From: a virus
Lineage: Duplodnaviria > Caudoviricetes
Direction: 5' to 3' (one strand)
DNA length: 57,043 nt
IMG/VR virus record: IMGVR_UViG_3300007735_000759
Location: 1-57,043 of that record
How positions within the stretch are numbered: position 1 is the stretch's first letter; the number at the start of each line of letters is the position of its first letter. This document shows, in pieces, positions 4,627 through 55,927 of this stretch. Below the pieces are notes generated by a model. The model was not told the DNA's origin. It searched no databases and saw only the letters and a program-made list of their open reading frames with translations. The translations under genes were made by a program, and so were the position numbers.

Positions 4627-4691
4627 GGCGACAATCTGTCACCTACTGACAAACCCGAATTCGGTTACGGATTTGCGCAGATACTGTGTAC
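4627..4691. repeat. cluster of three short imperfect palindromes
   Basis: GGCGACAATCTGTCACC (4627-4643), AAACCCGAATTCGGTT (4651-4666), GCGCAGATACTGTGTAC (4675-4691). Confidence 0.65.
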
Positions 4692-4711
4692 CCTAAAAAT
4701 TAATCATTGAT

Positions 4712-4728
4712 TTTTAATAAAATTTTAA
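4712..4728 (+). promoter_or_regulatory. repeated late-gene upstream motif; also fits CtrA box TTAA-N7-TTAA
   Basis: TTTTAATAAAATTTTA identical at 4712, 50089 and 56295; TTAA 4714 + TTAA 4725. Confidence 0.5.
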
Positions 4729-4890
4729 ATAAAATGAATTTATGCGTAAGTAAGAGCGCATTTACCAGGCATTTTGCCTTGGGTCTTATTCTTATTCAGT
4801 AAAAAGGTATGGAATCCTTCTTTACTTTCCCGTCCAAGCGACGTGGCACCTTTTCCACAAAAAATTAACTAATTTAAATGGAGTCCTCTT

Positions 4891-5604
4891 ATGTCTTATG
4901 GCAAAAATGGGCCACAAGGTGCAGTTGTCACAAAGTCTATTACTGGCGCACCTTGGACAGGCCAAGAAAACCCTTATCCTATTATTTCAGGTTATAGCAA
5001 CAATATTTTCAAAGGCGACTTAGTTGCAATTAAAGCCTTAACAGATCCTTCCACAGGCCTAACAGCTAATGTATTGGTAAATTATTGGGATTTAGTAACG
5101 GGTCAAAATCCGGCGAATGAAACTGTTGTAGCGGTAGGCGTTTTTAACGGTTGCGATTACGTTTCTCAAGATCAGACACAAATTGGAAATGCGCTCCCCG
5201 GTAGATCTTTTTGGCCGGCAGGCACCCTTACACAAGGGAATCAACCCGCGACAGCTTATGTAATCGATGATCCTAATGCTGTAGTCAATATCCAGGTAGG
5301 CGGCACGACTTCCGCAGGTATTAACAGCACCGCCGCGACTGCTGCAATGGCAGGAAAATTAATTGCCGTTAATTATCTTACAGATCCAACCAATCCAGGT
5401 CTTGTTTTAGGCAATTTTTCAAACGGCATGTCTTTGATGTTTGCAGACGCAACGCAAGTTGGACAACCAGGCGGGGGAGCTTATCGACCTTTGATGATTC
5501 AACGCTTAGTTGCCGCTGAAAACAACGAATGGGGCATTCCGTTTAACAACGTTGAATGCATTATCGCAAACCACATGTACCGCTTATCTTCACTTGGCTT
5601 ATAG
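4891..5604 (+). CDS. capsid-associated (decoration/cement-like) protein
   Basis: NIFKGDLV…VGVFNGC.Y…AYVIDDPN motifs; immediately upstream of the major capsid gene; GGAG SD. Confidence 0.65.
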   Translation: MSYGKNGPQGAVVTKSITGAPWTGQENPYPIISGYSNNIFKGDLVAIKALTDPSTGLTANVLVNYWDLVTGQNPANETVVAVGVFNGCDYVSQDQTQIGNALPGRSFWPAGTLTQGNQPATAYVIDDPNAVVNIQVGGTTSAGINSTAATAAMAGKLIAVNYLTDPTNPGLVLGNFSNGMSLMFADATQVGQPGGGAYRPLMIQRLVAAENNEWGIPFNNVECIIANHMYRLSSLGL

Positions 5605-5615: not shown

Positions 5616-6524
5616 ATGACTATTACACGCTCATATATAAATAGTACGCTCCTGCCAACCGCGTACGAATTATTTATCGATTTTAACACATTCCCGGATT
5701 TATGGCATCCTATCTACCGGCAGAATTCCTCAGATATGGCAATTGAAATTGTCCAGGAAATGAGAGGGTTACCGGCAGGTCAACTTAAGCTGGACGGCGG
5801 CCCAATTGCATCCGCAGACTTCGGGGATAGCTACAAAAGTAATTACATTAACCAGTACTACGGAATTTCTTTTGAAATAACCCGTGGCGCAGTCCGTGAC
5901 AACCAATATAAGAAACAATTCCCTCAACACGTCAAGCAAATGCGCAAATCGATGACTGAGGTTAAAAACGTTAACGCAATGAGGTTGTTTAACAACGGGT
6001 TTAATGCTAAATCAACCGGCTCAGATTTGCAACCACTTTTTTCGACTCAGCACCCTAACGTACAAGGGCCTCTTGCAAATACCTTTACAAATAACGTTCA
6101 GTTTTCTGAAAAAGCGCTTGAAGATGCAGTCACCATTATTACATCTCAATGGCGCACAAACTCAGGTCATTTAGGTTTTTACAAGCCAAAAAGTGTTCTT
6201 GTTCCGGCGCAGCGCCAATTTGATGCAATTCGAGTTTTACAATCCGATTATCAATCAAATAGCGCAAACAATGCTGTAAATGCTCTTAAAACCGGCGGAT
6301 TTATGCCAAAAGGACATCTGGTAAATCCGTATTTAAGCAATCCCTACAACTGGTTTGTTTTAACGGATTACGAAGAATACGGTTTTAACTATTTCCTTAA
6401 TGAACCTTTGGAATTCGATATTTCGAGCGATAACAGAACATACAACACTGTTTGCTCGTGTATAGAACGTTATGTGCATGGATATACAAACTGGCGCGGT
6501 GCTTTTGGCGCAAGAGGTTATTAG
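5616..6524 (+). CDS. major capsid protein (Mu gpT-like / HTVC023P-type)
   Basis: LFNNGF…D.QPLFSTQHP…VNPYL…WFVLTD…ERYVHGYTNWRGAFG signature; AGGAG SD. Confidence 0.88.
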   Translation: MTITRSYINSTLLPTAYELFIDFNTFPDLWHPIYRQNSSDMAIEIVQEMRGLPAGQLKLDGGPIASADFGDSYKSNYINQYYGISFEITRGAVRDNQYKKQFPQHVKQMRKSMTEVKNVNAMRLFNNGFNAKSTGSDLQPLFSTQHPNVQGPLANTFTNNVQFSEKALEDAVTIITSQWRTNSGHLGFYKPKSVLVPAQRQFDAIRVLQSDYQSNSANNAVNALKTGGFMPKGHLVNPYLSNPYNWFVLTDYEEYGFNYFLNEPLEFDISSDNRTYNTVCSCIERYVHGYTNWRGAFGARGY

Positions 6525-11392: not shown

Positions 11393-14197
11393 ATGGCAGT
11401 TATTGTTACGCAGCAAGGTAGTGATTTATCCATTCAGCAAAATTTAGTGGGAGATGGCACTAGTCTTGTTGTTTCTTATGGGACTCCTACCGCTACTCAA
11501 TGCAGAATAGGACTTACACCAAGCTCAAACTTGGCTGAGCTTGCAGCAATGACCGGAGGAGGTATTGTTGTCAGAAGTAATAGTACCGGTTCCATGAATC
11601 TGTGTACATTTTACTCATCTGACAGTTCTATCAGCATTAATTTCAATTCAACCCAAGCTAATTTCCAATTGGGCTCTACATTAACCGGGACTTACACGTT
11701 CTCTAATGCAATTACGTTACCCGTAAATTCGCTAGCTTTATCTGCCTTGTCAACAACTGGTTCTACCTCCGGCTATGTTTTAACTTCTAATGGCTCCGGC
11801 GTCGCGCCAACGTGGCAAGCAGCAGGTGGTGGCGGAGGCGGCGGCCTTACCAGTGTGGGATTAGGCGAGGTTTCCGGGGGGACTAATTTTGATTTTACAA
11901 ATAACCCACTAACGTCTAACGGAACTATCACGCTTGATATAGCGGTAGGTGGGTTGCCTTTATCAAGAATTGCTCAAGCTGGCGCAACTACAGGGCAAAT
12001 ATTAGCGTGGAGCGGTAGCGCGTGGACGCCTACAAGCGCAAGCGCATCTTCAATTGCTGTTGTGGCCCCCGGCTTATCTTCTACAACCGTAACGGGAATT
12101 ACTTTTACAGGTTCCGGAGTTACGGGAAGTGCAGCTGGTGGAATCGCAACAATTAATATCCCGGGAGGAGGGAGCGGCAGTGGGTTAACTAGTGTTGAGT
12201 TAGGCAATGAGGACGGAACAGAAACGATTTTAACGTTTACAAATAATCCCTTAACGTCTAACGGAACTATTGGAATTGGTTTTGCTGAAAATTCCCTGCC
12301 CCTTAGTAAATTAAAACAAACAGCAGCGACAGATGGTCAAGTTATGGCTTGGGATGCGGGGGCTACAAGCTGGAATCCTGCTAACTGGTCAGACATTCCT
12401 GCCGCCGGCAACGTAACAATCCCTATTGGGAGTTATATTGATTACGGAACAATTGCAATCAAACAAGTCCTTAATCTTCAATATTTACAAACTTATACTG
12501 GATCAAATGGAAGCGGTGCTATTTATGATAGTCAATTTTATCCAATTGGTGGTTTTGGAGGAACAGCAGGGCAGATTTTAAGCCTTGTAGCACCAGCTGC
12601 ATTTGGTTCGCCTGGAACTCCACAAGTTTTAGGCTGGATTGACAAAGGTGCTTCTACAATAAGTGTAACAGCCCCAGGACTAAGCGCAACCCCGGTAGGC
12701 AGCATCACATTTTCTGGTTCCGGTGTAACTGGAACGGCCGCAGCTGGCGTAGCCACAATTACAATTCCAGGCGGTGGGGGAGGTGGTGCTGTTTCAAGCG
12801 TTAGCGCAAGCGGAGGAACATCTGTTATTAACCCAACCACGGGCGCTGTTGTCTTACAAATGGATTTGCCCCTTTATGCCAATATTGAGAACCAAAACTT
12901 CTTTATTGGTGGAAATGTTGGGCCAATAGGAGACGGGAATTTCTTTGTTAATGGAGTTGGCGCACCTTCAAGCGCGACTTCGGCAACAGCAAACAATACA
13001 TCATTTGGTTCTTATGCATTACATGATATTGGCGCAGCTTCTAACAACACAGCCTTTGGTTTTAGCGCGCTTTACGGCGCAACAACAGCAACAAATAATA
13101 CAGCAGTCGGTTCTAACGCTTTAGTAAACGTGACCACAGGAAGCCATAACACGGCTCTTGGATATAGCGCAGGGCCTAATGCAAACGTGATTACGTCTCG
13201 ATGTACCTATTTAGGAAGCTCCTCTGAAACAACAACGACGGGAATATTTAATTCGGCTGCAATTGGATACAACAGCGTAGTAAACTCAAGCAACGCAACC
13301 GTGTTAGGGGACTGGACAAACCCCATGGAGGTTGTTGTTGGGGCAGCCACATCACTCGGCATGGAAACCCAAGCTGGTTATTATTCACTGTTAAGTCTTA
13401 GAAATGCCCAGAACTCAGGAATCTATCTTGATAACTCAACGGGCTTATCAAGCGCCCAATATGCCCAAATCCCGGGCACAGGTCTTTTGACCCAGCTTGT
13501 TGGAAATAATTTAATATTTATGAATACTGAGGGCTATGTTAGTCGAATGGCGACATATGCGAACGACTCTGACGCGTTCCCTAATGTTTATGCTCCTCCT
13601 GCAAACTCGTTGCTTGTGGGGAACTCCAATACAATCGGCACAACATCCCCCTCAAGTGGACGAGATTTTCTTGTTCTCACTCCGCCTGCAAGCTCATCCG
13701 GTTTACCAACCGGAGCCACCGGGCTTTTAGGGTATTCTCCCGCAGAAGGCACAACCTGGTTCTCTAGTGCCCCCGCTTTAGCGGCTTCTTTTTTGGCATT
13801 CGGTACAGATATAGCAACCCCCGTTGCCCCCGTCCAGCACGTTTCTTATATTGCGACTCCAGATCCAGAAGCTTTAGGGAACCCAACATTTTTCACTCTT
13901 CCCTCTGATTTTGCTGTGGGCTCCAGTTTTCGCGTCATCGGCAGTAATCCTTACGGATGGATTATCTCGACAGCAATTCCTGCTTCTGTAGCTCAACGCA
14001 TTGTTTTCGGTAACAGAATTGTTTCTAGCACTCTTTCTTCAGTGGCGGCGATTCAAACCGACCCTAACGCAGTTTATCCATCCCCTACAGGATATGTAGG
14101 AGATTGGGCCGAGCTAGTTTATACGACTGAAGAAGAAGATGGAACACAAGTTTGGACTGTTATGTCTCCTTGTAACTTAGACATGTTCCAATCTTAA
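11393..14197 (+). CDS. tail fibre
   Basis: Gly/Ser/Thr-rich; GYVLTSNG.G.APTW fibre motif; internal duplications; YadA-head-like NNTAxG..AL repeats. Confidence 0.85.
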   Translation: MAVIVTQQGSDLSIQQNLVGDGTSLVVSYGTPTATQCRIGLTPSSNLAELAAMTGGGIVVRSNSTGSMNLCTFYSSDSSISINFNSTQANFQLGSTLTGTYTFSNAITLPVNSLALSALSTTGSTSGYVLTSNGSGVAPTWQAAGGGGGGGLTSVGLGEVSGGTNFDFTNNPLTSNGTITLDIAVGGLPLSRIAQAGATTGQILAWSGSAWTPTSASASSIAVVAPGLSSTTVTGITFTGSGVTGSAAGGIATINIPGGGSGSGLTSVELGNEDGTETILTFTNNPLTSNGTIGIGFAENSLPLSKLKQTAATDGQVMAWDAGATSWNPANWSDIPAAGNVTIPIGSYIDYGTIAIKQVLNLQYLQTYTGSNGSGAIYDSQFYPIGGFGGTAGQILSLVAPAAFGSPGTPQVLGWIDKGASTISVTAPGLSATPVGSITFSGSGVTGTAAAGVATITIPGGGGGGAVSSVSASGGTSVINPTTGAVVLQMDLPLYANIENQNFFIGGNVGPIGDGNFFVNGVGAPSSATSATANNTSFGSYALHDIGAASNNTAFGFSALYGATTATNNTAVGSNALVNVTTGSHNTALGYSAGPNANVITSRCTYLGSSSETTTTGIFNSAAIGYNSVVNSSNATVLGDWTNPMEVVVGAATSLGMETQAGYYSLLSLRNAQNSGIYLDNSTGLSSAQYAQIPGTGLLTQLVGNNLIFMNTEGYVSRMATYANDSDAFPNVYAPPANSLLVGNSNTIGTTSPSSGRDFLVLTPPASSSGLPTGATGLLGYSPAEGTTWFSSAPALAASFLAFGTDIATPVAPVQHVSYIATPDPEALGNPTFFTLPSDFAVGSSFRVIGSNPYGWIISTAIPASVAQRIVFGNRIVSSTLSSVAAIQTDPNAVYPSPTGYVGDWAELVYTTEEEDGTQVWTVMSPCNLDMFQS

Positions 14198-14205: not shown

Positions 14206-14230
14206 AACTTGTAAGAAATACTTACAAGTT
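14206..14230. repeat. perfect palindrome with 10-bp arms and 5-bp spacer
   Basis: AACTTGTAAG-AAATA-CTTACAAGTT. Confidence 0.9.
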
Positions 14231-21777: not shown

Positions 21778-21802
21778 AGTTGTACGAAAAAATCGTACAA
21801 CT
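21778..21802. repeat. perfect palindrome with 10-bp arms and 5-bp spacer
   Basis: AGTTGTACGA-AAAAA-TCGTACAACT. Confidence 0.9.
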
Positions 21803-40838: not shown

Positions 40839-40885
40839 TCACAAATTGTGACCGGTTGAAAACTGATTGCAGAGGATAAGGAAAA
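40837..40885 (+). other. palindrome plus Bro-N-like gene snippet at the Mod 3' junction
   Basis: TCACAAATTGTGA palindrome; reads ITNCDRLK then, after a frameshift, LIAEDK. Confidence 0.6.
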
Positions 40886-40895
40886 GTAAAAGAGA

Positions 40896-45840: not shown

Positions 45841-45905
45841 AAATCCTCCTTCTAACTTGGTTTATGTTAAGGTATAAATTCTGATAAAATTTATACCTCG
45901 TTTTT

Positions 45906-46084: not shown

Positions 46085-46099
46085 TTAATTAAGGGTTAA
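46085..46099. promoter_or_regulatory. CtrA-like box
   Basis: TTAA-TTAAGGG-TTAA upstream of the VRR-NUC/SSB genes. Confidence 0.45.
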
Positions 46100-46192
46100 A
46101 CTCGCTTTTTTGGTTTTTAGTGTTTTCTGAAAAAGTACTCCTCCTTGCACCTTTTGAAATGCTCTGGTACTTTTAAAAGGTGCATTTATTTT

Positions 46193-46982: not shown

Positions 46983-47029
46983 GATATTAAATTCCATAAA
47001 CGCTATTTACCATAATCGCTTTAAAAGTC

Positions 47030-47311
47030 ATGCGCATGAAAATTAAAGGTCGTCCTACTTGGTTATTTGGGATAGTAGCTATTATTATACTTTCTGCTGT
47101 AGGTAAATATGATTTTTTACATACTCAACTTTGGCCATGGGATATAATAAAATGGTTGGTTGTCCCTTTTTTCTTTTTAACGTTAATAAATCTTTGCGCT
47201 AAAAAATATCAAGAAATAGATGATTTAAAGGGAATTATTCAACAGAGGAAGAATAAGGATAAAGTTGTTTTACAAATTGAAGCATTCCTAAAGAAATGTG
47301 AGCATTTATAA
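47030..47311 (+). CDS. two-TM protein
   Basis: Two hydrophobic helices followed by a coiled coil. Confidence 0.55.
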   Translation: MRMKIKGRPTWLFGIVAIIILSAVGKYDFLHTQLWPWDIIKWLVVPFFFLTLINLCAKKYQEIDDLKGIIQQRKNKDKVVLQIEAFLKKCEHL

Positions 47312-47531
47312 TGCTCATGGTTGGGTAAATACTGGTAGCCCCCTTTATAAAGAATCTCTTGAGATTTTAGAAAACAATCCAGCTGTTTCAAAAGAAGATG
47401 TTGCAATTTTTAAAAATGATACAAGACTAATTTCCCTTTATCCTGGGCATCGTCCTAATGCCGGTAAAGCGAGAATTCTGTTTTTGAATGATATAATAAT
47501 TAATTTTAGCGCAATTAAATCTCAGTTATAG
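47298..47531 (+). CDS. hypothetical protein
   Basis: 77-aa ORF overlapping the previous stop. Confidence 0.4.
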   Translation: MSIYNAHGWVNTGSPLYKESLEILENNPAVSKEDVAIFKNDTRLISLYPGHRPNAGKARILFLNDIIINFSAIKSQL

Positions 47532-47687
47532 ATTTCCTTCACAAACACCATTCTACCTAAAGTTTCTTGATCTTTTTTTGTAAGCGTTAAAATAGAAATC
47601 CTACAGAATATCCCTCTTTGGTATTAATCATGGTGTATGGATGTTCAATCCTGTAGAATCTCTATCTTTCTAAAAGTAAAACAAATT

Positions 47688-47981
47688 TTAATGCAAATCA
47701 ACCTTAGACCCGCATAATTTCTTTATTTTTTTAAAACGGTTTTCGTCGAATAAGAGTGACTCTATTTCTTTAAAGATGTCTATTTTAAAATCTTCTGCAT
47801 TGAACATTGGATCTAAATTTATTCGAACAAAGCACGTTATGTAAAACATTAATACAGCAACCCCTGCTACTGACGCATTTTCTCTTTGTAGTATTTCTCG
47901 TAAATCGTCCATTGCTATCTGGATTTCTTCTTTTTGTTTTTCTGATAATTGTTTCAATGCTTCTGGTATCCAATCTTCCAT
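47688..47981 (-). CDS. small acidic helical protein (possible fourth paralogue of the 31.2-32.0 kb family)
   Basis: Hydrophobic periodicity matches that family. Confidence 0.6.
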   Translation of the reverse strand: MEDWIPEALKQLSEKQKEEIQIAMDDLREILQRENASVAGVAVLMFYITCFVRINLDPMFNAEDFKIDIFKEIESLLFDENRFKKIKKLCGSKVDLH

Positions 47982-47986
47982 TTTGT

Positions 47987-48799
47987 TTATTTCTTAATAA
48001 TAATTCCGTTTATTTGCTCTTTAGTTAACAGGGGCATTTCTTTCGAGAATTCTTTGTTAAAAACAGTATTACTGAAAATAGCTTTATGATACGTGTTGTC
48101 ATTAAAATCACATGTAGACAAATCATTGTTAGTAAAATCCATTACATCAAAATAACACATTCTATAATCGTTGTATTTATTTTCCCCAAAAAACATTGCG
48201 CAGTCCAGCTCGCACATAAAAAAAGAGCAGGACGTTGTATCTGGAAAATCGCAATTGGTTAATGAGCAGTGTATAAAATTGTTATGATCTAAGTATTCAG
48301 GTAATTGCGAAAGATCAATATTACATTCTACAAAACTATTTGAAATAATTGCCGAAGGGGCAATTTCAAATGGCTTATCCTCATAATTATTGCGCCTAAA
48401 AAGTATTGGGCACTCTCGAAAATAACAATTAATAATTTCTGAATCTGAAATATTACTTAATATAATATCAGTCTCTAAAAAACTGCATTTTCTGAATGCC
48501 ATTTTCTCTGAATAGTTTGCAAAAAGTAATGGTTGGAAAAGTTTGCATTTTTCAAAAACGACATTATCAAATGTATTCCCATTGTAAAAATAAAACCGAC
48601 TTTTTCTTATATTGCAATTATAAAATTTAGAATAAGATAAGTCTTCCTTTAACTCACAGTTATTAAACCTGCATTTAATAAATTTCGAACCCTCTAAATT
48701 TTCTTTAAAATTGCAATTTATAAATTCTACGTTTTTAAAGACATCTTGTTCACCTGGTTTCCCATATATGTCTTGATTTTCTATTTTTTTATATCCCAT
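47987..48799 (-). CDS. pentapeptide-repeat protein, copy A
   Basis: F.NC.F repeats; extensive nucleotide identity with 49104-49973. Confidence 0.88.
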   Translation of the reverse strand: MGYKKIENQDIYGKPGEQDVFKNVEFINCNFKENLEGSKFIKCRFNNCELKEDLSYSKFYNCNIRKSRFYFYNGNTFDNVVFEKCKLFQPLLFANYSEKMAFRKCSFLETDIILSNISDSEIINCYFRECPILFRRNNYEDKPFEIAPSAIISNSFVECNIDLSQLPEYLDHNNFIHCSLTNCDFPDTTSCSFFMCELDCAMFFGENKYNDYRMCYFDVMDFTNNDLSTCDFNDNTYHKAIFSNTVFNKEFSKEMPLLTKEQINGIIIKK

Positions 48800-48813
48800 T
48801 TTTTACTCTTTTT

Positions 48814-49098
48814 CTAACCAACAATTAAGTTTTTGTTTTTATTTGTTTGAATTTTTATGGCGTCCTTTAAACAAAATGATAAATGAGGAATGTCATCTAT
48901 TATGAATTTATTTTCATGATTGGGATCTTCTTTAATTCTGTATTTAGCCAACATCTCATTGTAATACTCCTCAAAATTACCTTTATAACTGCATCTTAAA
49001 TCACATTCTATTTGTTTGGTCACTTGATTATAAACAATTGCCCTATTAAGTATAGTTGCGTGAGCCTTTTTTATTAACTCAAATTCGCTCTTTTCCAT
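48814..49098 (-). CDS. hypothetical protein between the duplicated genes
   Basis: 94 aa, tightly packed. Confidence 0.65.
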   Translation of the reverse strand: MEKSEFELIKKAHATILNRAIVYNQVTKQIECDLRCSYKGNFEEYYNEMLAKYRIKEDPNHENKFIIDDIPHLSFCLKDAIKIQTNKNKNLIVG

Positions 49099-49103
49099 TT
49101 TCT

Positions 49104-49973
49104 TTATTCCTTAATAATAATTCCGTTTATTTGCTTTTCTGTTAACAAAAGAATTTCTCTCGAGGATTCTTTGTTAAAAACAGTATTACTGAAAATAGCT
49201 TTATGATACGTGTTGTCATTAAAATCGCATGTGGACAAATCTTTGTTAGTAAAGTCGGAGCTTTCAAAATTGCACATCCTATAATCGTTGTATTGACTTT
49301 CTTCTGAAAAAATTATTTTTGGCATGTCGCACATAGTAAAGGAGCAGCTTTGTGTGCCCGTAAGTTGACAGGTATCTAATGAACAGTGTATGAAGTTGTT
49401 GTGCTCTAAGTATTCAGGAAATTGTGAATAATTAAAATCACATTCTACAAAATTATTTGAAATAATTGCCGAAGGGGCAATTTCAAATGGCTTATCCTCA
49501 TCATTATTGTGCGTGAAAAGTATTTTGCACTCTCGGAAATAACAATTAATAATTTCTGAATCTGAAATGTCTCGTAATTCAATATCGGTCTCTAAAAACT
49601 TGCATTCAGAAAATGCAACATTCTTTGAATAATTTGTTTCAATTAATAAGTCGGAAAATTTACATTTTTCAAAAACGATATTATCGAAATTATTTCCTTC
49701 GCAACAATAAAGCCGACTTCTTCCTATATTGCATTTATAAAATTCAGAATTGGCTAAGTCTGTATCTAAATTACACTTATCAAAAAAACATGTTGTAAAT
49801 TTTGAGCCCTCTAAATCTTTTAAAAACATACAATTATTAAACCTGCATTTAATAAATTCCGAACCTTCTAAATTTTCTTTAAAATTGCAATTTATAAATT
49901 CTACGTTTTCAAAGATATCTTGTTTACCTGATTTCCCATGTATGTCTTGGTTTTCTATTTTTTTATATTCCAT
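49104..49973 (-). CDS. pentapeptide-repeat protein, copy B
   Basis: As copy A plus one extra 19-aa coil. Confidence 0.88.
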   Translation of the reverse strand: MEYKKIENQDIHGKSGKQDIFENVEFINCNFKENLEGSEFIKCRFNNCMFLKDLEGSKFTTCFFDKCNLDTDLANSEFYKCNIGRSRLYCCEGNNFDNIVFEKCKFSDLLIETNYSKNVAFSECKFLETDIELRDISDSEIINCYFRECKILFTHNNDEDKPFEIAPSAIISNNFVECDFNYSQFPEYLEHNNFIHCSLDTCQLTGTQSCSFTMCDMPKIIFSEESQYNDYRMCNFESSDFTNKDLSTCDFNDNTYHKAIFSNTVFNKESSREILLLTEKQINGIIIKE

Positions 49974-50088
49974 TTTTAAATCCTTAATATGTTTTGTTTT
50001 ACTAAACTTAATTTATCCGCTTGACACTTTTGTGTCGAGTTGAAAACTCTTTAATTTTTCTCTTTTTCCATGCATAAAAACGTGCTAT

Positions 50089-50104
50089 TTTTAATAAAAT
50101 TTTA
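50089..50104 (+). promoter_or_regulatory. repeated late-gene upstream motif
   Basis: TTTTAATAAAATTTTA before terS. Confidence 0.45.
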
Positions 50105-50183
50105 GTATATTTTTAATATTGTGGAATTCGGGATAGCCGAAAATTACCGCTTTTAAAATATGGTCTTTTGTAAAAGGTTGAAG

Positions 50184-50591
50184 ATGGCTGATAGAGATGA
50201 AAAAGGCTGGTTTTTACCAGGAAACCAAATCGCAAAAATGAAAAGGAAAGACACACCGAATATTCTCGCTCTGCAAGATAAAGTTGTGTTTGAAAAACTT
50301 GCTGATTGGGCCGAACGTAAAATCTTACAGGGCGATGAGAAATTCAATACGGCTCTTTACTTAAGTTTGGTGGGCAAATGCAATGCGGTTAAAGACTTGC
50401 CTGAGAAATTCGATTTGGGGAAAACTCAAAACTTTAAAGACATTGATGATGCTTTGGAAAAAGTTATTAAAGCTTTGGCGGATGGCGAAATAACCCATGC
50501 GGAGGCTGAATCGTTTGAAAAAAGATTGGCTTCAAAATTTTCTTTTTTACAAGCAGCATTGCAAATGCCTAAAGAAAATGTCGAATCTTGA
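50184..50591 (+). CDS. terS: terminase small subunit (putative)
   Basis: RDEKGWFLPGN N-terminal motif; GEIT..EA; directly upstream of terL. Confidence 0.7.
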   Translation: MADRDEKGWFLPGNQIAKMKRKDTPNILALQDKVVFEKLADWAERKILQGDEKFNTALYLSLVGKCNAVKDLPEKFDLGKTQNFKDIDDALEKVIKALADGEITHAEAESFEKRLASKFSFLQAALQMPKENVES

Positions 50592-50594
50592 TTT

Positions 50595-52244
50595 ATGGCA
50601 GTTTTTAAGGTTTTTAAACCTCAATACGATTCTTCGCTATTTGTCACAAAATCACAAAAAATTGTTGATGAGGCGGAGACGTTAAGCGATGATTTTTATT
50701 CTTTTGCTGCCGCCGCGTGGCCGATTGTAGAGGGTAAAGAATTAAAAAAAGCTTATTTCGTCGACGCAATTTGTTTGCATTTGGAAAGCTGTTATTACAG
50801 TTACATTAAAAACCTCATATTAAATTGCCCTCCTCGCATGGGCAAGTCTACATTAGTTTCTATTTTGTTTCATCCGTGGGTCTGGACTAAAGAACCTCAT
50901 TTAAAATTCATTTTTTCTTGTTATAACCAAGAACTGTCTCACCGCGACTCTCGAAAAGCATTACGTTTAATCCGTTCTGATTGGTATCAGCAACGGTGGG
51001 GTGATAAAGTAATCCTACAAAAAGATCTTCAAGGCGTAGGTATGTATGAAAACAAAGCGACCGGTGTTCGTTACTCAACATCTGTAGAGAGCGGCGGAAC
51101 TGGCTTTGGCTCTCATTTCTCTGTTTTCGACGATTTGAATAACATTCAACATGTTAAATCGGATGCCGATAGAAAGAACATAAACCGTTATTTTTCTGAA
51201 GTTATGACAACCCGTATTGAAGATGCTTACAGAAATTGCCGTATTATTACGCAACAACGTACGCATGTTGAAGATGTTAGCGGTTATACAATTGCTAACG
51301 ACAGGGCTGGCTCTTGGTGTGTTTTGTCGCTTCCAATGAAATACGAGACGGGCAATAAATGCACGACTTACCCTTTTGGTAATGACGAGCCTTGGGAAGA
51401 TTGGCGCACTCGCGAAGAAGAGTTATTGCACCCCGATCTTATCCCTCAGACAATGATTGATGAGTGGGAAGCTGGTTGGAATTATGATCCATATATTATT
51501 GCGGGCCAAATGCAGCAAAGACCTACGCCTTTGGGTGGTGGTTTATTAAAGGCGGATTATTTCCAAAAATGGAAAGAACCCGACTTGCCTTCGTTTAAAT
51601 ACATACTCCAAAGTTGGGACACAGCAACTACGGCTAAAGAAACTGATGGCAGTAGTTTTTCGGCTTGCACAACATGGGGTGTCTTCACCAACCGGGACGA
51701 TGAGTCATTAAACGATGTTATGCTTTTGTCGGCGTGTCAGGGTAAGTGGGATGCTCCCACACTATTTACAATGGCATTGAGGCTCTATCACAATATTTTT
51801 GATACAAATCCAGACGGCCCGGAGCTAAATAGTTCATTTAAGCCAAGTGTTGTTTTGGTTGAAAATAAAAGTAGCGGGCCTGGATTAATCCAAGTTTTGC
51901 AAAAACAAAATATTGACGTGAGAGGGTTTGAACCTCGCAAGTACGGAGACAAGACCCACCGTGTCATGATGGCTTCGCACATAATCGGCAATAAGCGTGT
52001 ATGGTTACGTACAACGAAAAGTTCTGATTATGAGGAGCTTACGGCTGAATCCGAGCTTGCTTTACGATATTTTGCAATGTTTGGCCCAACTTCCCCAAAC
52101 GATCTTACTGATACGTTAAGCCAGGCCATTATCTTTTTAGAAAAAAACAACTTATTGCTGCATTCGACTTACTGGCGACAAGCTACGTTGCCATGGCAGC
52201 AACCGAATTATACCGAATTAAAACGTTCCGATCTGATGATGTAG
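50595..52244 (+). CDS. terL: terminase large subunit
   Basis: NCPPRMGKS Walker A; VFDD Walker B; QQR; QSWDTA; VENKSSG; NDLTD nuclease motifs. Confidence 0.95.
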   Translation: MAVFKVFKPQYDSSLFVTKSQKIVDEAETLSDDFYSFAAAAWPIVEGKELKKAYFVDAICLHLESCYYSYIKNLILNCPPRMGKSTLVSILFHPWVWTKEPHLKFIFSCYNQELSHRDSRKALRLIRSDWYQQRWGDKVILQKDLQGVGMYENKATGVRYSTSVESGGTGFGSHFSVFDDLNNIQHVKSDADRKNINRYFSEVMTTRIEDAYRNCRIITQQRTHVEDVSGYTIANDRAGSWCVLSLPMKYETGNKCTTYPFGNDEPWEDWRTREEELLHPDLIPQTMIDEWEAGWNYDPYIIAGQMQQRPTPLGGGLLKADYFQKWKEPDLPSFKYILQSWDTATTAKETDGSSFSACTTWGVFTNRDDESLNDVMLLSACQGKWDAPTLFTMALRLYHNIFDTNPDGPELNSSFKPSVVLVENKSSGPGLIQVLQKQNIDVRGFEPRKYGDKTHRVMMASHIIGNKRVWLRTTKSSDYEELTAESELALRYFAMFGPTSPNDLTDTLSQAIIFLEKNNLLLHSTYWRQATLPWQQPNYTELKRSDLMM

Positions 52245-52250
52245 GGGGCT

Positions 52251-54803
52251 ATGATGGGATTAAACCAGCAAATTGGTCAAGAAATTGACTTAGGTAACCA
52301 TGGTGAGAAAATTAAATTTCTTGAGGATGGCACGTCTGTCTATCTTGGTAAACAGTATCCTGTATCTTTACGTAACGGAAATGATGTTGGTTTTTATGAT
52401 AACCTAGTTGAAGAGCTAGACCCTTTTGAATTGGGCCAGATTGGTAGTACGTTATCAGACTTAATTGAAAGTGACATTGATAGCCAGAAGCCTTATCGAC
52501 AGGGCCTTGCTGACGTTATTAAATTGCTAGGTTTGTCTTTGGATAATGCAGGGTCAACGGATGGCGGCACAATAAATGTTGTTTCAACGACGCTTTTCGA
52601 AACCGTTTGTCACATTGTTGCTTCGGCGTCTAATTCACTCCTCCCCGCGCAAAACATGGCTAAGACAGTTGTATTTGGTGAGATTACAGAACAAACAGAG
52701 CAAGTGGCTAAACGCCTTGAATACTATTACGATTATTACTTTCAAGAAAAACTTAAACATTTTAGAGCTGAACAGCTACGTACCTTTATGTGGGCATGTG
52801 TAGCAGGTTGCGTCTATAAAAAAGTTCTAATTGATCCTTATCATAACAGGCCGGACTCATTGTTTATTAGACCAGGTGATTTTGTAATTAACAAGGCTTA
52901 CTCTACTCATCTTTCGTGCCCGCGCCGAACGGAAATTAAAAGGATGACAAAGCGCGAATATGATTATTTAGTGAATACAGGATTTTACACTGATAACGCT
53001 TTTTATTCCGAAAATGTAAATAGCAGCGAAACGGGACATGAAATACAAACGGAACTTGATTCAATTTCGGGTACTCAACCCAATGTTTCTTCGGATGAAT
53101 ACGACCGAAACTATGTCCTTTACGAAAGCCATGTGCATTTTCTTGTAAAAAGTGATAGAGAAAAAAATCGGTATAATTATGTATCACCTTACATAATTAC
53201 ATTAGACTCACAAACCAAAAAGGTTGTAAGAATTTGCCGAAACTGGCGGAGAGAAGATATTACTCGTGAAGAAATACAATTCTATGTAGATTACAACCTA
53301 TTGCCGTCTTTAGAAGGGGATGGTTATGGCATGATGCACTATGCAGCGGACAGCGCGGAGGCTGCAACTGCAATGAAGCGTCTGATTTTAAAGGCTACAA
53401 CCTATGCCAGTTTCCCTGGCGGAATTTATGATGCAGGAGTTAGATTAGAATCTAATAGCATTAGTCCTATGCCAGGCCAATACGTGCCATTAAATTTAGG
53501 TGGGCGCAAAGCGTCAGAGGTGCTAGAAACGCTCCCTTTCCGTGATGCCTCCGATGTTGCTATTCAATTTCAAAAAGAGATTGAGCAAACAATACGAAAC
53601 CCTAGCGACATCATTAATGACACGATTGCAGAGATGGCCCCAAGCGCACCTACTGGTTCTGTACTTGCCATTCTAGAAACGTTACAACGTGTCCCTAATT
53701 TAATCCTCCAAGGTTTCCACTCTTCATTTTCTCTAGAGTTACAGCTTTTTCAACAAAGATTTTACGAATGGTTTTCGCCTACCGAGTCGTACCCCTTTTT
53801 AGTTCCTGGCGGCGAACATGCTTTAATGAAAGAGGATTTTGGACCTAAATATAAAGTCATGGCTTCTTCAGACCCTACCATGCAAAACTCAGCATATCGA
53901 TTGATGTTGTCTGAGCTTGTTCTTGGGAAAGCTTTAGAATCGCCTGACTTACACGATCTAAGAGAATCTTATTTGTATTTTTACAAGAACTTAGGTTTAT
54001 CGCAGGAAAAAATTGACAAAATCTTACTTCCAAAACCTGAGCAGCCAGAAATGAAACCTATTGACCCTGCAACAGAAAATGCAGATTTAATAAATGGTAA
54101 AGGAGCAAAAGCTTTTGTGTTCCAAGATCATTTAGCACATATGACGGTGCATGATATAATTCTGCAAGATCCAAATCAAGACCCTGGCGTTATCGCTGCT
54201 ACTCAAGCGCATAAAAAAGAGCACGAGGGGATGCAATTCTTAGTTGAGTTGCAAACGCGCATGAATACGCCAATCCCTGAAAACGTTTCAGATTTGCAGC
54301 CGCAAGAACAAAATCAATTGGCTATCTTGCAAGCTCAAGCTGTGCAACAAATGCAAAATGCAGATGCAGAGCAAAACCCTGCACCAGAAGCCCCGATAGA
54401 TCCAGGTCGTGCGCAAATTCAAGATGCGGAAATTAAAGCTCAAACGGCTCGTGAAAATTTGCAATTCGATATGCAGAAATTAGAAATTGATGTGCAGCTG
54501 AAAGAATCCCAAAGAGATTTTGAAATGCAAAAAGTTCAATTGGAAACAGAAATAAAACATCGTGAATTAGATTTGAAAGCGCAAGAGGCTGAATCTCGAC
54601 AACTGCAAGCGACCCATGCTATGCAAATAAAAGAACTTGAGTTACAATACAAAATGAAAATCGATGATCTTAAGAATCAATTGGCAGATAAGAAAATGCA
54701 ATTAGATCAAATCAATAAAGAGAAAGATTTTGAATTAAATTCGCTTAAGGCGGGTCATGACATGGCTAATCAGCAAAATCAATTTGTAGAGCAACAGGAT
54801 TAA
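52251..54803 (+). CDS. portal protein
   Basis: FYDNL.E, G..YKKV, GYG..H, AP.G..LA.LE and DPATEN…AF..QDH.AH motifs; long C-terminal coiled coil; follows terL. Confidence 0.88.
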   Translation: MMGLNQQIGQEIDLGNHGEKIKFLEDGTSVYLGKQYPVSLRNGNDVGFYDNLVEELDPFELGQIGSTLSDLIESDIDSQKPYRQGLADVIKLLGLSLDNAGSTDGGTINVVSTTLFETVCHIVASASNSLLPAQNMAKTVVFGEITEQTEQVAKRLEYYYDYYFQEKLKHFRAEQLRTFMWACVAGCVYKKVLIDPYHNRPDSLFIRPGDFVINKAYSTHLSCPRRTEIKRMTKREYDYLVNTGFYTDNAFYSENVNSSETGHEIQTELDSISGTQPNVSSDEYDRNYVLYESHVHFLVKSDREKNRYNYVSPYIITLDSQTKKVVRICRNWRREDITREEIQFYVDYNLLPSLEGDGYGMMHYAADSAEAATAMKRLILKATTYASFPGGIYDAGVRLESNSISPMPGQYVPLNLGGRKASEVLETLPFRDASDVAIQFQKEIEQTIRNPSDIINDTIAEMAPSAPTGSVLAILETLQRVPNLILQGFHSSFSLELQLFQQRFYEWFSPTESYPFLVPGGEHALMKEDFGPKYKVMASSDPTMQNSAYRLMLSELVLGKALESPDLHDLRESYLYFYKNLGLSQEKIDKILLPKPEQPEMKPIDPATENADLINGKGAKAFVFQDHLAHMTVHDIILQDPNQDPGVIAATQAHKKEHEGMQFLVELQTRMNTPIPENVSDLQPQEQNQLAILQAQAVQQMQNADAEQNPAPEAPIDPGRAQIQDAEIKAQTARENLQFDMQKLEIDVQLKESQRDFEMQKVQLETEIKHRELDLKAQEAESRQLQATHAMQIKELELQYKMKIDDLKNQLADKKMQLDQINKEKDFELNSLKAGHDMANQQNQFVEQQD

Positions 54804-54826
54804 CGGATAAATGGAAAGAGAACATA

Positions 54827-55294
54827 ATGACTATTTCTTCATTAGACGCCGCCAAACAAATGTGTGAATTGAGCAATTGGACTCTAACCCATCTCAAATT
54901 GCAGAAGCTTCTTTATTTAGCCCATATGGTGCATTTGGGTCGAACGGGGAAGCCTTTAATAAGTGAAAATTTTGAAGCTTGGACATATGGGCCAATTATT
55001 CCTTCTTTATATAAAAAATTAGGTTTTTTTGGAAATTCAGAAATTAAAAATATTTTTCATATGGTAAATTCACCTTCTTCTCATGATGAAATTATTAAAA
55101 GTATATATGATTTTTTTGGGAAAAAAGAATCGTGGGAGCTATCAAGATTAACCCGTTCTCTAAAGGGAGCGTGGGTGAAAAATTATAATTTAGACTGCCA
55201 AAGAATAATCCCAAATTCTGATATTTTAGAAGAGTACAAAAAAAGACAGATAAAGAAAGATGAACAAAATGTACACGCCTCAACATGTCACTAA
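54827..55294 (+). CDS. Panacea (SocA/DUF4065) antitoxin-like protein
   Basis: LTHLKLQKLLYLA…FEAWTYGPIIPSLY…GAW. Confidence 0.92.
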   Translation: MTISSLDAAKQMCELSNWTLTHLKLQKLLYLAHMVHLGRTGKPLISENFEAWTYGPIIPSLYKKLGFFGNSEIKNIFHMVNSPSSHDEIIKSIYDFFGKKESWELSRLTRSLKGAWVKNYNLDCQRIIPNSDILEEYKKRQIKKDEQNVHASTCH

Positions 55295-55754
55295 TTTCAT
55301 TCTTGAAAAAGCAGAAAGAGAAAGGCTGTCTATTACCCCGGTAAAGTTGTTTAAGCTAGTGTACTTGATATATGGATGGGTGTTAGCTGTTTTAGATAAG
55401 CGTTTGTTTGATGAACCGATCCAAGCATGGAAATTAGGCCCTGTTGTTCCTTCTTTATATCACGAATTTAAAAGATTCGGTGAGAATCCAATTACTGAAA
55501 AATCGGTATACATGGACGAAGAAAGCCAAGTTTCTTATCCCTTTTTAAACGTTGATGAATCAACTGCTATGGTGATGACTAAAGCCTGGGAGGTATATAG
55601 TCCTTTCGCCGCCTCTGCATTGGTTAATAAAACGCATGAGCCAGGAAATCCCTGGTTTAAATATTATACGAAAGAAGAAAAACACATTCTTATTCCTGAT
55701 GAAGAAATTAAGGAGTATTTTGTAAAAAAGATTAGTAGATATGTTGACTGTTAA
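55260..55754 (+). CDS. Panacea (SocA/DUF4065) antitoxin-like protein
   Basis: ITPVKLFKLVY…IQAWKLGPVVPSLYHEFK…THEPGNPW. Confidence 0.92.
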   Translation: MNKMYTPQHVTNFILEKAERERLSITPVKLFKLVYLIYGWVLAVLDKRLFDEPIQAWKLGPVVPSLYHEFKRFGENPITEKSVYMDEESQVSYPFLNVDESTAMVMTKAWEVYSPFAASALVNKTHEPGNPWFKYYTKEEKHILIPDEEIKEYFVKKISRYVDC

Positions 55755-55927
55755 CCATTTTGCTAACGTCAGCAAAATGGTGTTTCTAATTTCAATTCGC
55801 GGCAAATTGTCACGATCTTATTTTCTTAAAATAGTCGAAATGGCTGACTACCATTTTCGTGACGTTACGGAAATGGTCATTGGTAGCTTGCTGACTATTT
55901 TCAGTTATTCGATTTTTTCGAATAACT
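55754..55927. repeat. array of four to five different palindromes
   Basis: ACCATTTTGCT-N6-AGCAAAATGGT; TCGCGGCAAATTGTCACGA; ACCATTTTCGTGACGTTACGGAAATGGT; AGTTATTCGA-TTTTT-TCGAATAACT. Confidence 0.85.

What the first reader, a model, noticed from the sequence alone, without database searches (positions are those of the whole stretch)
4627..55927. Genome-wide set of short palindromes matching the variable cores of Bro-N, DinD, RhuM and KilA-N genes (candidate new system)
Seen: about ten intergenic 15-30 bp palindromes with different sequences, several of them 10-bp arms around a 5-bp spacer. They lie at 4627-4691 (three), 14206, 21778, 40839, 50020 and 55754-55927 (four or five). Translated, they give VTCKYFLQVQIG, QLYEKIVQL, ELFEKIE*LK, ITNCDRLK, VTDCRRL, AANCHDL, HFANVSKMV, HFRDVTEMVIGS and KPEFG. 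From recall, these match the short, variable, palindrome-encoded segments inside RhuM (TCKxFLQVQxEG), Bro-N-like (ELYEKIVQLK / VTNCxxLK), DinD (DHFxDVxKMV) and KilA-N (KPxEFxG) genes, which are common in restriction/defence islands. The phage encodes none of these genes, and only the palindrome plus a few flanking bases is present. Inference: the DNA site rather than the peptide is what matters. Options are (a) binding sites collected as decoys or self-marks against host defence-island DNA-binding proteins, (b) recombinogenic micro-elements marking gene-capture junctions, or (c) tiny mobile palindromes.
Basis: partly seen in the sequence, partly recalled or inferred. Interest (0 to 1): 0.88.

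Follow-up and report, generated by a model that had tools for sequence, protein, structure and literature searches.

The report
Defence-gene palindromes standing alone in phage
This phage carries short DNA palindromes that otherwise sit inside the coding sequence of a superfamily of candidate bacterial defence genes, which suggests they are protein recognition sites the phage may use as decoys.

Summary
The core observation holds. Six palindromes in the window (14206, 21778, 40839, 55754, 55850, 55903) have the architecture of palindromes embedded in DinD, Bro-N, RhuM and ORF6N genes, against about 0.12 expected from shuffles. The phage has no such gene. The other five or so reported sites are weak.

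Three things show that DNA symmetry, not the peptide, is conserved:
- arm changes are compensatory;
- synonymous codons are frozen;
- one ORF6N subclass reads the same DNA in another frame.

Solitary copies are common in viral contigs: 111 of 116 RhuM-type hits lie outside RhuM genes. Some sit in back-to-back arrays of several families. Two control palindromes from this phage gave 0 hits.

Best reading (about 0.4): these are recognition sites for dimeric N-terminal domains of these candidate defence proteins. In the gene they would be self-sites, and in phages decoys or immunity tags, as with BstA-aba. The rivals are recombination junctions, RNA hairpins or terminators, and gene scars. Eight literature searches found no description of these palindromes.

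The parts
14206..14230 (.). RhuM-type palindrome AACT-6-5-6-AGTT (10-bp perfect arms, 5-nt A/T centre). The RhuM-sense reading (VTCKYFLQVQ) is on the minus strand. It lies 8 nt after the stop of ORF 11393-14197.
   Evidence: The arms are identical to those in the RhuM-Fic gene of L152. The same arms occur in at least 116 viral contigs, 111 of them outside RhuM genes. RNA fold -12.1 kcal/mol, z -5.6. Not flagged as terminator-like.
21778..21802 (+). Bro-N-type palindrome AGTT-6-AAAAA-6-AACT. The 25-mer is identical to the segment coding QLYEKIVQL in Bro-N (PADLOC PDC-S13) genes. It lies 10 nt after the stop of ORF 20625-21767.
   Evidence: The metagenome scan gave at least 118 hits, 37 of them with these exact arms. 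Pfam Bro-N and PADLOC PDC-S13 assignment of the carrier genes. Not flagged as terminator-like.
40839..40861 (.). ORF6N/Bro-N 'TNC'-type core TCACAAATTGTGA (40839-40851) plus the right flank CCGGTTGAAA. It reads ITNCDRLK on the plus strand. It starts directly after the stop of the N6-methyltransferase-like ORF 39540-40838 and lies upstream of the C5-methyltransferase ORF 40896-41810.
   Evidence: L583/L585 share the CCGGTT flank. In related phages this 23-nt piece is kept while 39593-40838 (run X11) or 40862-41756 (run X3) are missing or replaced. As an RNA hairpin it is weak: -3.2 kcal/mol, z -0.2.
55754..55781 (.). DinD-type palindrome, copy 1 (11-bp perfect arms, inner arm type GCT/AGC, centre AACGTC). 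It overlaps the last base of the stop codon of the Panacea-domain ORF 55260-55754.
   Evidence: The pattern is found in at least 120 genome loci from very diverse phyla, archaea included. It is the only site whose orientation and tail fit a lenient terminator scan for the upstream gene. In run X11 an indel starts exactly at its last base.
55850..55877 (.). DinD-type palindrome, copy 2 (inner arm type CGT/ACG, one T.G mismatch on the plus strand). It lies inside a 116-bp segment (55782-55897) that is replaced by 20 other letters in a related phage.
   Evidence: The DinD model NF008573 aligns weakly to 55840-55947 on the minus strand (12.3 bits, E 0.0023, 2 stops), so a little gene-like flank may remain.
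55903..55927 (-). AGTT-6-AAAAA-6-AACT palindrome with ATTCGA arms (Bro-N/RhuM-class-2 type). It contains the stop codon of the AlpA-like gene 55905-56135 (minus strand), whose last residues ELFEKIE it encodes.
   Evidence: The identical arms stand alone in L344, L364 and L387. They occur in 16 viral contigs; in L656, L659, L660, L662, L664 and L665 the surrounding DNA reads, by my own reading of the printed flank in another frame, as a RhuM-like coding sequence (SVIRKFRITA).
4627..4686 (.). Three short imperfect palindromes (4627-4643, 4652-4666, 4678-4686) in the 475-bp region between the AlpA gene 4212-4415 (minus) and ORF 4891-5604. They resemble ORF6N-type and KilA-N-type (GAATTC centre) cores but are not significant on their own.
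   Evidence: none reaches 8 matched pairs. KilA-N genes do carry GAATTC-centred palindromes.
54827..55754 (+). Two SocA/Panacea-domain genes (54827-55294 and 55260-55754), directly upstream of the palindrome cluster.
   Evidence: PF13274, E 4e-17 and 9e-16.

Best explanation
SHOWN. The six well-supported palindromes are solitary copies of family-specific palindromic DNA modules. Elsewhere these modules sit inside the coding sequence, at about residues 60-90 in or just after the N-terminal DNA-binding domain, of DinD, Bro-N, RhuM, ORF6N and KilA-N genes. Those genes match candidate-defence models in PADLOC. In the genes, two-fold DNA symmetry is maintained by compensatory changes even when the encoded peptide or the reading frame changes.

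INFERRED. Each palindrome is the recognition site of the dimeric N-terminal domain of its own protein family. The copy inside the gene is a tightly linked self-site, for autoregulation or self-immunity, like the aba DNA element of the KilA-N defence protein BstA. Solitary copies and arrays in phages act as aba-like decoys or immunity tags that titrate or switch off the host's cognate proteins. This phage, which has none of the genes, carries a set covering four families, partly next to other likely counter-defence genes (two DNA methyltransferases and two Panacea-domain genes).
For: (1) Gene-embedded palindromes were found in family-based samples, not sequence-pattern samples.
- DinD: 23 distinct genes from 27 positive of 401 genomes have 0-3 mismatched pairs of 15.
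- RhuM: 98 of 301 genomes positive; 22 of 30 loci scored, plus L152; 15 of 23 have perfect arms.
- ORF6N: 28 of 30 loci have 6-17 matched pairs, 11 or more in most.
- Bro-N/PDC-S13: 11 of 30 loci have a palindrome at the expected place.
- KilA-N: at least 14 of 30 loci have a GAATTC-centred palindrome at about residue 60-80.

(2) The conservation is at DNA level: covarying arms, frozen synonymous codons, a GAT..ATC compensation that pairs a synonymous change with V to I, and the same ORF6N DNA read in two frames.

(3) Solitary copies are frequent and independent. 111 of 116 RhuM-type viral hits, falling into 38 flank-unrelated groups, are outside RhuM genes. 106 of 112 hits of the looser DinD pattern are outside DinD genes. 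Two other perfect palindromes from this phage gave 0 viral hits.

(4) Arrays mix families. Bro-type, two RhuM-type and a DinD-type palindrome sit back to back in L446, L452, L484, L502 and L504. L181 has RhuM, Bro and DinD types within 100 bp. L226, L225 and L178 have 3-4 DinD variants in tandem. The window itself has two DinD variants and a Bro type within 175 bp.

(5) Extra DinD-type copies occur in 6 of 30 DinD-positive genomes but in 1 of 60 DinD-negative genomes.

(6) All the carrier families match PADLOC candidate-defence models: PDC-S13, PDC-S05 and PDC-S23.

(7) Precedent: BstA, a KilA-N protein, is suppressed by a cognate DNA element that overlaps its own gene, and phages given that element escape (PMC8585504; abstract and passages read).

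(8) A DinD homodimer model scored 0.60 against a best control of 0.00. That mark was reached by 21 of 30 solved homodimers and 0 of 23 solved monomers. The runs agree in at least 90% of contacts, and pLDDT is 87. The symmetric interface (residues 50-60 and 90-125) leaves the palindrome-encoded residues 64-73 free. This supports a dimer; it does not show one.
Against: - No binding, defence or decoy activity has been tested for any of these proteins or sites. PADLOC PDC families are candidates only.
- aba has terminal direct repeats and overlaps the gene start. It is not a palindrome inside the domain.
- Covariation would also be expected for an RNA or single-stranded DNA hairpin. The mismatch spectrum was too small to tell the two apart: 9 mismatches, of which 3 were G.T/T.G and 1 was A.C.
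- Some solitary RhuM-type copies are the stems of A-run/T-run terminator-like hairpins (L433, L477, L501).
- Mixed-family clustering is the exception. In the RhuM-anchored set, 4 of 116 loci have a Bro-type and 3 a DinD-type site nearby. In the DinD-anchored set, 1 of 101 has a RhuM-type and 1 a Bro-type site nearby. Several of these contigs are related to each other.
- The extra copies in DinD-positive genomes are partly local duplications. In 2-3 of the 6 genomes they are of a different arm type from the resident gene.
- The host of this phage is unknown, so no cognate match can be checked.
- About half of the PDC-S13 loci showed no palindrome.
Confidence: 0.4

Rival explanations
1. Recombination linkers. 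The palindromes are short stretches shared by many unrelated phages and host genes. Recombination or breakage happens at them, so they end up at the junctions of gene cassettes. Inside the genes they would allow in-frame exchange of halves in either orientation.
For: - In related phages, the 23-nt piece 40839-40861 is kept between two independently missing or replaced methyltransferase cassettes.
- An indel (55782-55897) starts exactly at the last base of DinD copy 1 and ends 2 nt before the extended hairpin at 55900.
- 27 of 118 Bro-type hits lack family sequence on at least one side. In several the homology stops at the palindrome (L323, L324, L339, L410, L332, L348).
- L087 holds duplicated DinD half-genes around four copies.
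- The DinD gene of L007/L026 is flanked on both sides by identical copies.
Against: - Other indels in the same phage lineage have gene-end or microhomology boundaries without palindromes, for example 55290->55786 through a 9-nt direct repeat. Junctions at gene ends are therefore the norm here.
- Only 11 of 6105 pairs of RhuM-type viral sites share one flank but not the other.
- The idea does not explain why symmetry is held by compensatory change in single-copy genes, nor the back-to-back arrays.
Confidence: 0.2
2. RNA-level hairpins. In the phage they would be transcript-end structures (terminators, 3' stabilisers or processing sites), and in the genes a regulatory mRNA hairpin. The sequence likeness would then be a by-product of shared ancestry or capture.
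For: - Five of the six sites fold stably as RNA, -12 to -15 kcal/mol with z -3.6 to -6.5.
- Five of the six touch a stop codon or lie within 10 nt of one.
- Some viral copies have A-run and T-run flanks like bidirectional terminators.
- Copy 2's only arm mismatch is T.G on the plus strand.
- GGCGTC centres, which give G.U in the sense strand, are common in DinD genes.
Against: - Only 1 of the 6 fits even a lenient terminator scan in the right orientation. Three are not flagged at all, and terminator-like sites are no more frequent than in shuffles: 10 against 9.2 and 15 against 11.5.
- The stems are AT-rich. The phage uses a canonical GC-rich terminator elsewhere (15086-15111).
- The RhuM-type copy is in antisense orientation to its neighbours.
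- The ORF6N-type core is not a stable RNA hairpin (z -0.2).
- Termination does not require identity with defence-gene cores across unrelated phages. The intergenic gaps are short, so closeness to stop codons is weak evidence.
- No Rfam family matches.
Confidence: 0.2
3. Decay scars. The phage lineage once carried DinD, RhuM, Bro-N or ORF6N genes, and only the most deletion-resistant or slowest-decaying piece is left, without any function.
For: - There are weak gene-like flanks. The DinD model aligns over 36 positions around copy 2 (12.3 bits).
- The sequence CAA follows the RhuM-type site, and CCGGTT follows the ORF6N-type core, as in the genes.
Against: - Solitary copies outnumber gene copies in viral contigs by about 20 to 1 (111:5 and 106:6).
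- The arms are still perfect while the flanks are gone.
- Arrays place cores of three or four families back to back with no flanks.
- Palindromes are normally deletion-prone (recalled general knowledge), so their survival argues for selection.
Confidence: 0.1
4. Tiny mobile palindromes of the REP or MITE kind, moved by a hairpin-recognising transposase.
For: - The same 25-28-mers occur in dozens of flank-unrelated contexts.
- One DinD-type copy (L240) is flanked by 24-bp direct repeats.
- Adjacent copies resemble REP clusters (recalled).
Against: - Each type occurs once or twice per genome, not in tens of copies.
- No consistent target duplication was seen.
- No transposase is linked in the window.
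- The gene-embedded copies are in frame and ancient.
Confidence: 0.05

Closest known systems
BstA-aba: a prophage KilA-N-domain abortive-infection protein with a cognate DNA self-immunity element (Owen et al. 2021, PMC8585504; abstract and passages read)
   Same: - A short DNA element lies within or overlaps the gene of a KilA-N-type defence protein.
- It acts as DNA, not as peptide or RNA.
- Each protein variant has its own cognate element.
- A phage that carries the element escapes.
   Different: - aba is 63 bp with terminal direct repeats and spans the promoter-proximal 29 bp plus the first 34 bp of the gene.
- The elements here are 25-35 bp palindromes inside the domain-coding part.
- They occur in five related families and stand alone in many phages that lack the gene.
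- No function has been tested for them.
Intrinsic (factor-independent) terminators and moron boundaries in phages (recalled general knowledge)
   Same: Stem-loops directly after stop codons and at the edges of accessory genes. Some solitary RhuM-type copies have A-run and T-run flanks.
   Different: In this window the stems are AT-rich and mostly lack a T tail. The sequences are shared with defence-gene cores across unrelated phages, which termination does not require.
REP/BIME elements and integron attC sites (recalled general knowledge)
   Same: Imperfect palindromes with conserved outer boxes and variable, covarying inner arms. They cluster, and they sit at cassette boundaries.
   Different: There is no multicopy spread within a genome and no linked RAYT or integron integrase. 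These are much shorter than attC, and the primary copies are in frame inside protein-coding genes.
RNA anti-CRISPRs: solitary CRISPR repeat units carried by phages as decoys (recalled; no paper read here)
   Same: A phage carries only the short nucleic-acid recognition element of a host defence system, without the genes.
   Different: Those elements act as RNA on Cas proteins. Here the cognate partners would be Bro-N/KilA-N-type proteins, and the active form (DNA or RNA) is unknown.

Membership tests
aba-like DNA self-immunity or decoy element | The element lies within or overlaps the gene of a KilA-N/Bro-N-type defence protein | tested here: met
   The gene-embedded copies lie at about residues 60-90 of DinD, RhuM, Bro-N, ORF6N and KilA-N genes. 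The window itself holds only solitary copies.
aba-like DNA self-immunity or decoy element | Variant proteins have distinct cognate elements | tested here: inconclusive
   There are many arm variants per family, and the encoded residues change with them. Whether specificity follows the variant could not be tested. Column entropy of the RhuM core (1.7-2.1 bits) is not higher than that of other variable columns.
aba-like DNA self-immunity or decoy element | The DNA element suppresses the cognate protein, and a phage carrying it escapes | not testable with these tools
   This needs plating assays and binding assays.
Intrinsic terminator | GC-rich stem followed by a T tract, oriented with the upstream gene | tested here: not met
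   1 of 6 fits in the right orientation (55754-55781). 3 of 6 are not flagged. 2 are flagged only on the strand that does not serve the upstream gene.
Intrinsic terminator | Transcripts end at the hairpin | not testable with these tools
   No RNA holder was listed for this phage.
REP/MITE-like mobile palindrome | Many near-identical copies within one genome | tested here: not met
   The window has one or two per type. DinD-positive genomes have 1-4 copies, and 59 of 60 DinD-negative genomes have none.
Pseudogene remnant of DinD/RhuM/Bro-N/ORF6N | Homology to the gene extends beyond the palindrome on both sides | tested here: not met
   Family models find nothing, or only 12-15 bits. Only 1-6 extra flanking bases match.
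Described RNA family (Rfam) | Match at the gathering score | tested here: not met
   0 matches in the window and in 4 gene loci.

The most novel reading that the evidence does not exclude
A whole superfamily of defence-island genes (KilA-N, Bro-N, ORF6N, RhuM, DinD) carries its own palindromic recognition site inside the DNA that encodes its DNA-binding domain, so that protein and site cannot be separated by recombination. Phages answer by collecting these sites, singly or in mixed arrays, as gene-free DNA decoys. That would extend the single BstA-aba case to a widespread defence and counter-defence principle found in bacteria, archaea and their viruses.
Probability: 0.3. Interest if true: 0.9.

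Novelty: new variant of a known kind. Interest (0 to 1): 0.8.

Why it matters
If the palindromes are cognate sites, three things follow.
- They give an immediate handle on the unknown function of very common defence-island genes. RhuM was found in 98 of 301 Bacteroidota genomes and ORF6N in 42 of 151.
- They predict which phage should escape which gene variant.
- They add a new class of protein-free counter-defence that gene-based annotation cannot see.

Even without that mechanism, a coding sequence kept palindromic across phyla is an unusual constraint. Compensatory amino-acid changes and a frame switch both preserve it. It should be taken into account when these families are aligned, when trees are built, or when selection is inferred.

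Tried and rejected
- **Close relatives.** Megablast of 20 kb against GenBank phages found nothing. The best terminase match is 35% identity. A search with ORF 52251-54803 in viral contigs found 2 distant loci. Presence or absence in close relatives could therefore only be read from metagenome contigs.
- **Expression.** No RNA holder was listed for the phage, so this says nothing about expression.
- **RNA against DNA by wobble asymmetry.** Only 9 arm mismatches in 23 RhuM genes, which is inconclusive.
- **Hypervariability of the RhuM core.** Not distinct from other variable columns.
- **Distance of solitary DinD-type copies to ORF ends.** 15 of 50 lie within 30 nt, against 20% of random positions. 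The gene calls were crude, so this is not used.
- **One-sided flank homology.** 11 of 6105 pairs.
- **Mixed-family clustering.** Real, but in few loci.
- **Solved structures.** None match the N-terminal parts by sequence.
- **Rfam.** No match.
- **First regular expressions.** They missed motifs and were corrected. Eight of 30 RhuM loci and 5 DinD loci were not scored by the final expressions.
- **Literature.** Eight searches (plus the read of PMC9881135) found no description of these palindromes.
Full report
**What the window is.** It is a complete record of 57,043 bases, a single contig with direct terminal repeats and a CheckV completeness estimate of 77%. It is a tailed phage with no close cultured relative:
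- megablast against GenBank phages found nothing;
- the large terminase (50595-52244) is at most 35% identical to that of Roseobacter phage CRP-901.

Recognisable genes:
- a major-head-like protein (5616-6524);
- a tail-spike-like protein (11393-14197);
- an N6-type methyltransferase (39540-40838) and a C5 methyltransferase (40896-41810);
- two SocA/Panacea-domain proteins (54827-55294, 55260-55754);
- two AlpA-like proteins on the minus strand (4212-4415, 55905-56135).

**Checking the observation.** Perfect hairpins with arms of at least 10 bp number 10, against 1.25 +/- 1.13 in 40 local dinucleotide shuffles. Six of them have a family-specific architecture:
- 14206-14230: AACT, 6 nt, 5 nt, 6 nt reverse complement, AGTT;
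- 21778-21802 and 55903-55927: AGTT, 6, 5, 6, AACT;
- 55754-55781 and 55850-55877: ACCATTTT, 3, 6, 3, AAAATGGT, the second with one mismatch;
- 40839-40851: TCACAA, 1, TTGTGA.

Detectors for these four architectures found 1, 2, 2 and 1 sites. The means in 300 shuffles were 0.033, 0.03, 0.047 and 0.007.

In related phages the 50020 hairpin carries substitutions at 50020 and 50032, and the one at 50032 breaks a stem pair.

*DinD.*
- A pattern built from the two DinD-type copies has 21 specified bases, so by my own arithmetic fewer than one chance match is expected in 596 Gb. The loci span Pseudomonadota, Bacteroidota, Planctomycetota, Verrucomicrobiota, Clostridia and archaea.
- Of 122 sites, 103 are perfect 28-mers. 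The three free inner pairs are complementary in 113. In 94, the site lies in the frame DHFxDVxKMV followed by x[LIVM]G[SLKY].
- The carrier proteins are DinD (NCBIfam NF008573, E 1e-107 to 1e-115) with a Bro-N N-terminal domain.
- To remove the bias of a sequence pattern I then searched by protein family. 27 of 401 Pseudomonadota genomes have a DinD match. In 23 distinct genes the 30-mer over the motif has 0-3 mismatched pairs of 15: 3, 11, 7 and 2 genes with 0, 1, 2 and 3 mismatches. Two spurious regex hits had 11, and five loci were not scored.
- His is CAT in 23 of 23, Lys is AAA in 23 of 23 and Phe is TTT in 22 of 23, in loci of 42-62% GC.
- The changes are compensatory: GTT/AAC, GCT/AGC, CGT/ACG, CCT/AGG, GCC/GGC and CCC/GGG. 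In GAT...ATC a synonymous Asp change is paired with a Val to Ile change.

*RhuM.*
- 98 of 301 Bacteroidota genomes have PF13310. In 22 of the 30 fetched loci, plus L152, the segment T-x6-V is encoded by AACT-6-5-6-AGTT.
- 15 of 23 have perfect 10-bp arms, and there are at least nine different arm sequences.
- The arms at 14206 equal those of the RhuM-Fic gene in L152.

*Bro-N.*
91 sites lie in Bro-N proteins of about 280-320 residues that read ELSEKIGQLK or ELYEKIVQLK, with TCC/GGA against TAC/GTA as compensating pairs. 27 sites lack family sequence on at least one side.
- A family-based sample (PADLOC PDLC04920; 31 of 201 genomes positive) showed a palindrome of 10-14 pairs at the expected place in 11 of 30 loci. 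These include variants that read ELSTICRQL, ELATNCSQL and YLGTNCPQV. About half of the loci showed none.

*ORF6N.*
- 42 of 151 genomes are positive. 28 of 30 loci carry palindromes of 6-17 matched pairs, 11 or more in most, centred on SQ[FI][AV]TS.
- A subclass (L582, L583, L585, L587) has the same DNA, with centre GTCGCAAATTGCGAC, read one base out of frame as LVANCDRF or ITNCDKL. This is the clearest sign that the DNA, not the peptide, is kept.
- The site at 40839 reads ITNCDRLK and shares the CCGGTT flank of L583.

*KilA-N.*
- 22 of 201 genomes are positive. At least 14 of 30 loci have a GAATTC-centred palindrome of 10-16 pairs at about residue 60-80.

All five recalled matches are therefore real.

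**Genes absent from the phage.** The phage itself has no Bro-N, ORF6N or KilA-N match. It has a 15-bit RhuM match far from any palindrome, and 12-bit and 4-bit DinD matches that lie on the palindromes themselves.

**Solitary copies elsewhere.**
Only 6 are in DinD genes. 43 of the sites with full flanks have complementary inner arms, and these fall into 35 flank-unrelated groups.
- The RhuM-type arms of 14206 occur in at least 116 viral contigs. 5 are in RhuM genes, and the 111 sites with full 150-bp flanks fall into 38 flank-unrelated groups.
- The arms of 55903 occur in 16 viral contigs. Some copies are solitary. In six contigs the flanking DNA reads, by my own reading of the printed flank in another frame, as a RhuM-like coding sequence (SVIRKFRITA).
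- As controls, the phage's two other long perfect palindromes (34171-34195 and 45870-45898) gave 0 viral hits. The wide distribution is therefore specific to the family-type sites.
- Several contigs hold arrays. L446, L452, L484, L502 and L504 have a canonical terminator followed, back to back, by a Bro-type, two RhuM-type and a DinD-type palindrome. L181 has RhuM, Bro and DinD types within 100 bp. L226, L225 and L178 have three or four DinD variants in tandem.
- Such mixed clusters are enriched near the anchor site, but they occur in few loci, several of them related: for example 4 Bro-type sites within 150 bp of 116 RhuM-type anchors, against 1 in the remaining 1.05 Mb.
- The window's own cluster (55754-55927) has two DinD variants and one Bro-type site.

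**Link to the genes in genomes.** Extra DinD-type copies occur in 6 of 30 DinD-positive genomes and in 1 of 60 DinD-negative genomes. Some flank the gene itself: L007/L026 have copies upstream of, inside and downstream of the gene. All four carrier families that I scanned match candidate-defence models in PADLOC: PDC-S13, PDC-S05 and PDC-S23. RhuM and DinD are known neighbours of type I restriction genes (PMC9881135; passages read).

**Related phages.** Contigs from freshwater and aquatic metagenomes cover much of 38000-57043 at 80-99% identity.
- One run lacks 39593-40838 (the N6 methyltransferase), with the joint at the first base of the 40839 palindrome.
- Another lacks or replaces 40862-41756. 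The 23-nt piece 40839-40861 is thus kept between two variable cassettes.
- One run replaces 55782-55897 by 20 other letters. The left edge is the last base of DinD copy 1, and the right edge lies 2 nt before the extended hairpin at 55900.
- Other indels in the same lineage have plain gene-end boundaries, or a 9-nt direct repeat (55290 to 55786).

**How it most likely works.** The shown part is that a DNA palindrome under symmetry-preserving selection is shared between the genes and solitary sites in phages. For the mechanism I commit, at about 0.4, to protein recognition sites. A two-fold symmetric site fits a dimeric DNA-binding domain. A DinD homodimer model scored 0.60 against a best control of 0.00, a mark reached by 21 of 30 solved homodimers and 0 of 23 solved monomers. 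The runs agree in at least 90% of contacts, and pLDDT is 87. The interface covers residues 50-60 and 90-125, not the palindrome-encoded 64-73. This supports a dimer; it does not show one.

The published precedent is BstA. This KilA-N-domain abortive-infection protein is switched off by aba, a cognate 63-bp DNA element that overlaps its own gene. aba works as DNA, in trans at high copy, and protects a phage engineered to carry it (PMC8585504). By analogy, the gene-embedded palindrome would be a linked self-site, and the phage copies would be decoys or immunity tags. This reading accounts for:
- the variant arms;
- tandem variants and mixed-family arrays;
- the excess of solitary copies in viruses;
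- in this phage, the closeness to methyltransferase and Panacea genes.

**Why the rivals remain open.**
- Covariation is equally expected for RNA or single-stranded DNA hairpins. The mismatch spectrum was too small to decide, and five of the six sites fold stably as RNA.
- Against simple terminators, only 1 of 6 fits a lenient scan in the right orientation.
- The junction reading is supported by the indel edges and by truncated genes, but it does not explain why symmetry is maintained in single-copy genes.
- The decay-scar reading is contradicted by the 20 to 1 excess of solitary over genic copies in viruses, and by the flank-free arrays.
- The mobile-element reading lacks multicopy spread and a linked transposase.

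**Novelty.** Eight literature searches and two papers read in part found no description of these gene-embedded palindromes or of their solitary copies in phages. Supplementary files could not be seen. I class the finding as a new variant of a known kind, the aba-type DNA immunity element. The observation itself is superfamily-wide and cross-domain, with a frame-independent DNA constraint, and it appears to be undescribed.

Noticed in passing
window 42559-43112, 47701-47981, 47981-48799, 49092-49968, 41844-42145: Related phages in metagenome contigs lack or replace whole small ORFs at these places. For example, ORF 42559-43110 is replaced by 16 letters in three runs. This is a cassette-like accessory region.
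   Followed up: partly
window 34171-34195: The longest perfect palindrome of the phage (12+1+12), at the start of ORF 34176-34601. It has no match in viral contigs, so it is not one of the shared family types. It may be a phage-specific operator.
   Followed up: partly
window 48660-48681 and 49834-49855: The same 8-6-8 hairpin occurs twice, inside two neighbouring minus-strand ORFs (47987-48799 and 49104-49973) that look like paralogues.
   Followed up: no
window 33892-33993: Weak match (15 bits, below the cut-off) of ORF 33229-34080 to positions 161-194 of the RhuM model, which is the part away from the palindrome.
   Followed up: no
L007 656-1838 and L026 1490-2701: A DinD gene carries the palindrome inside and also has identical copies about 70 bp downstream of its stop and about 220 bp upstream of its start. 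L007 has a fourth copy 4 kb away.
   Followed up: partly
L087 3419-4652: Four identical DinD-type palindromes with duplicated DinD half-genes, a shufflon-like arrangement.
   Followed up: no
L178 5920-6070: An open reading frame with a ribosome-binding site runs through four tandem DinD-like palindromes, giving a peptide with repeated H-x-x-D-V-T-x-M motifs. It is unclear whether it is translated.
   Followed up: no
L240 6720-6800: A solitary DinD-type palindrome flanked on both sides by the same 24-bp direct repeat.
   Followed up: no
L009 2682-4385: Two identical DinD-type palindromes bracket a 515-residue ORF that has no Pfam match.
   Followed up: no
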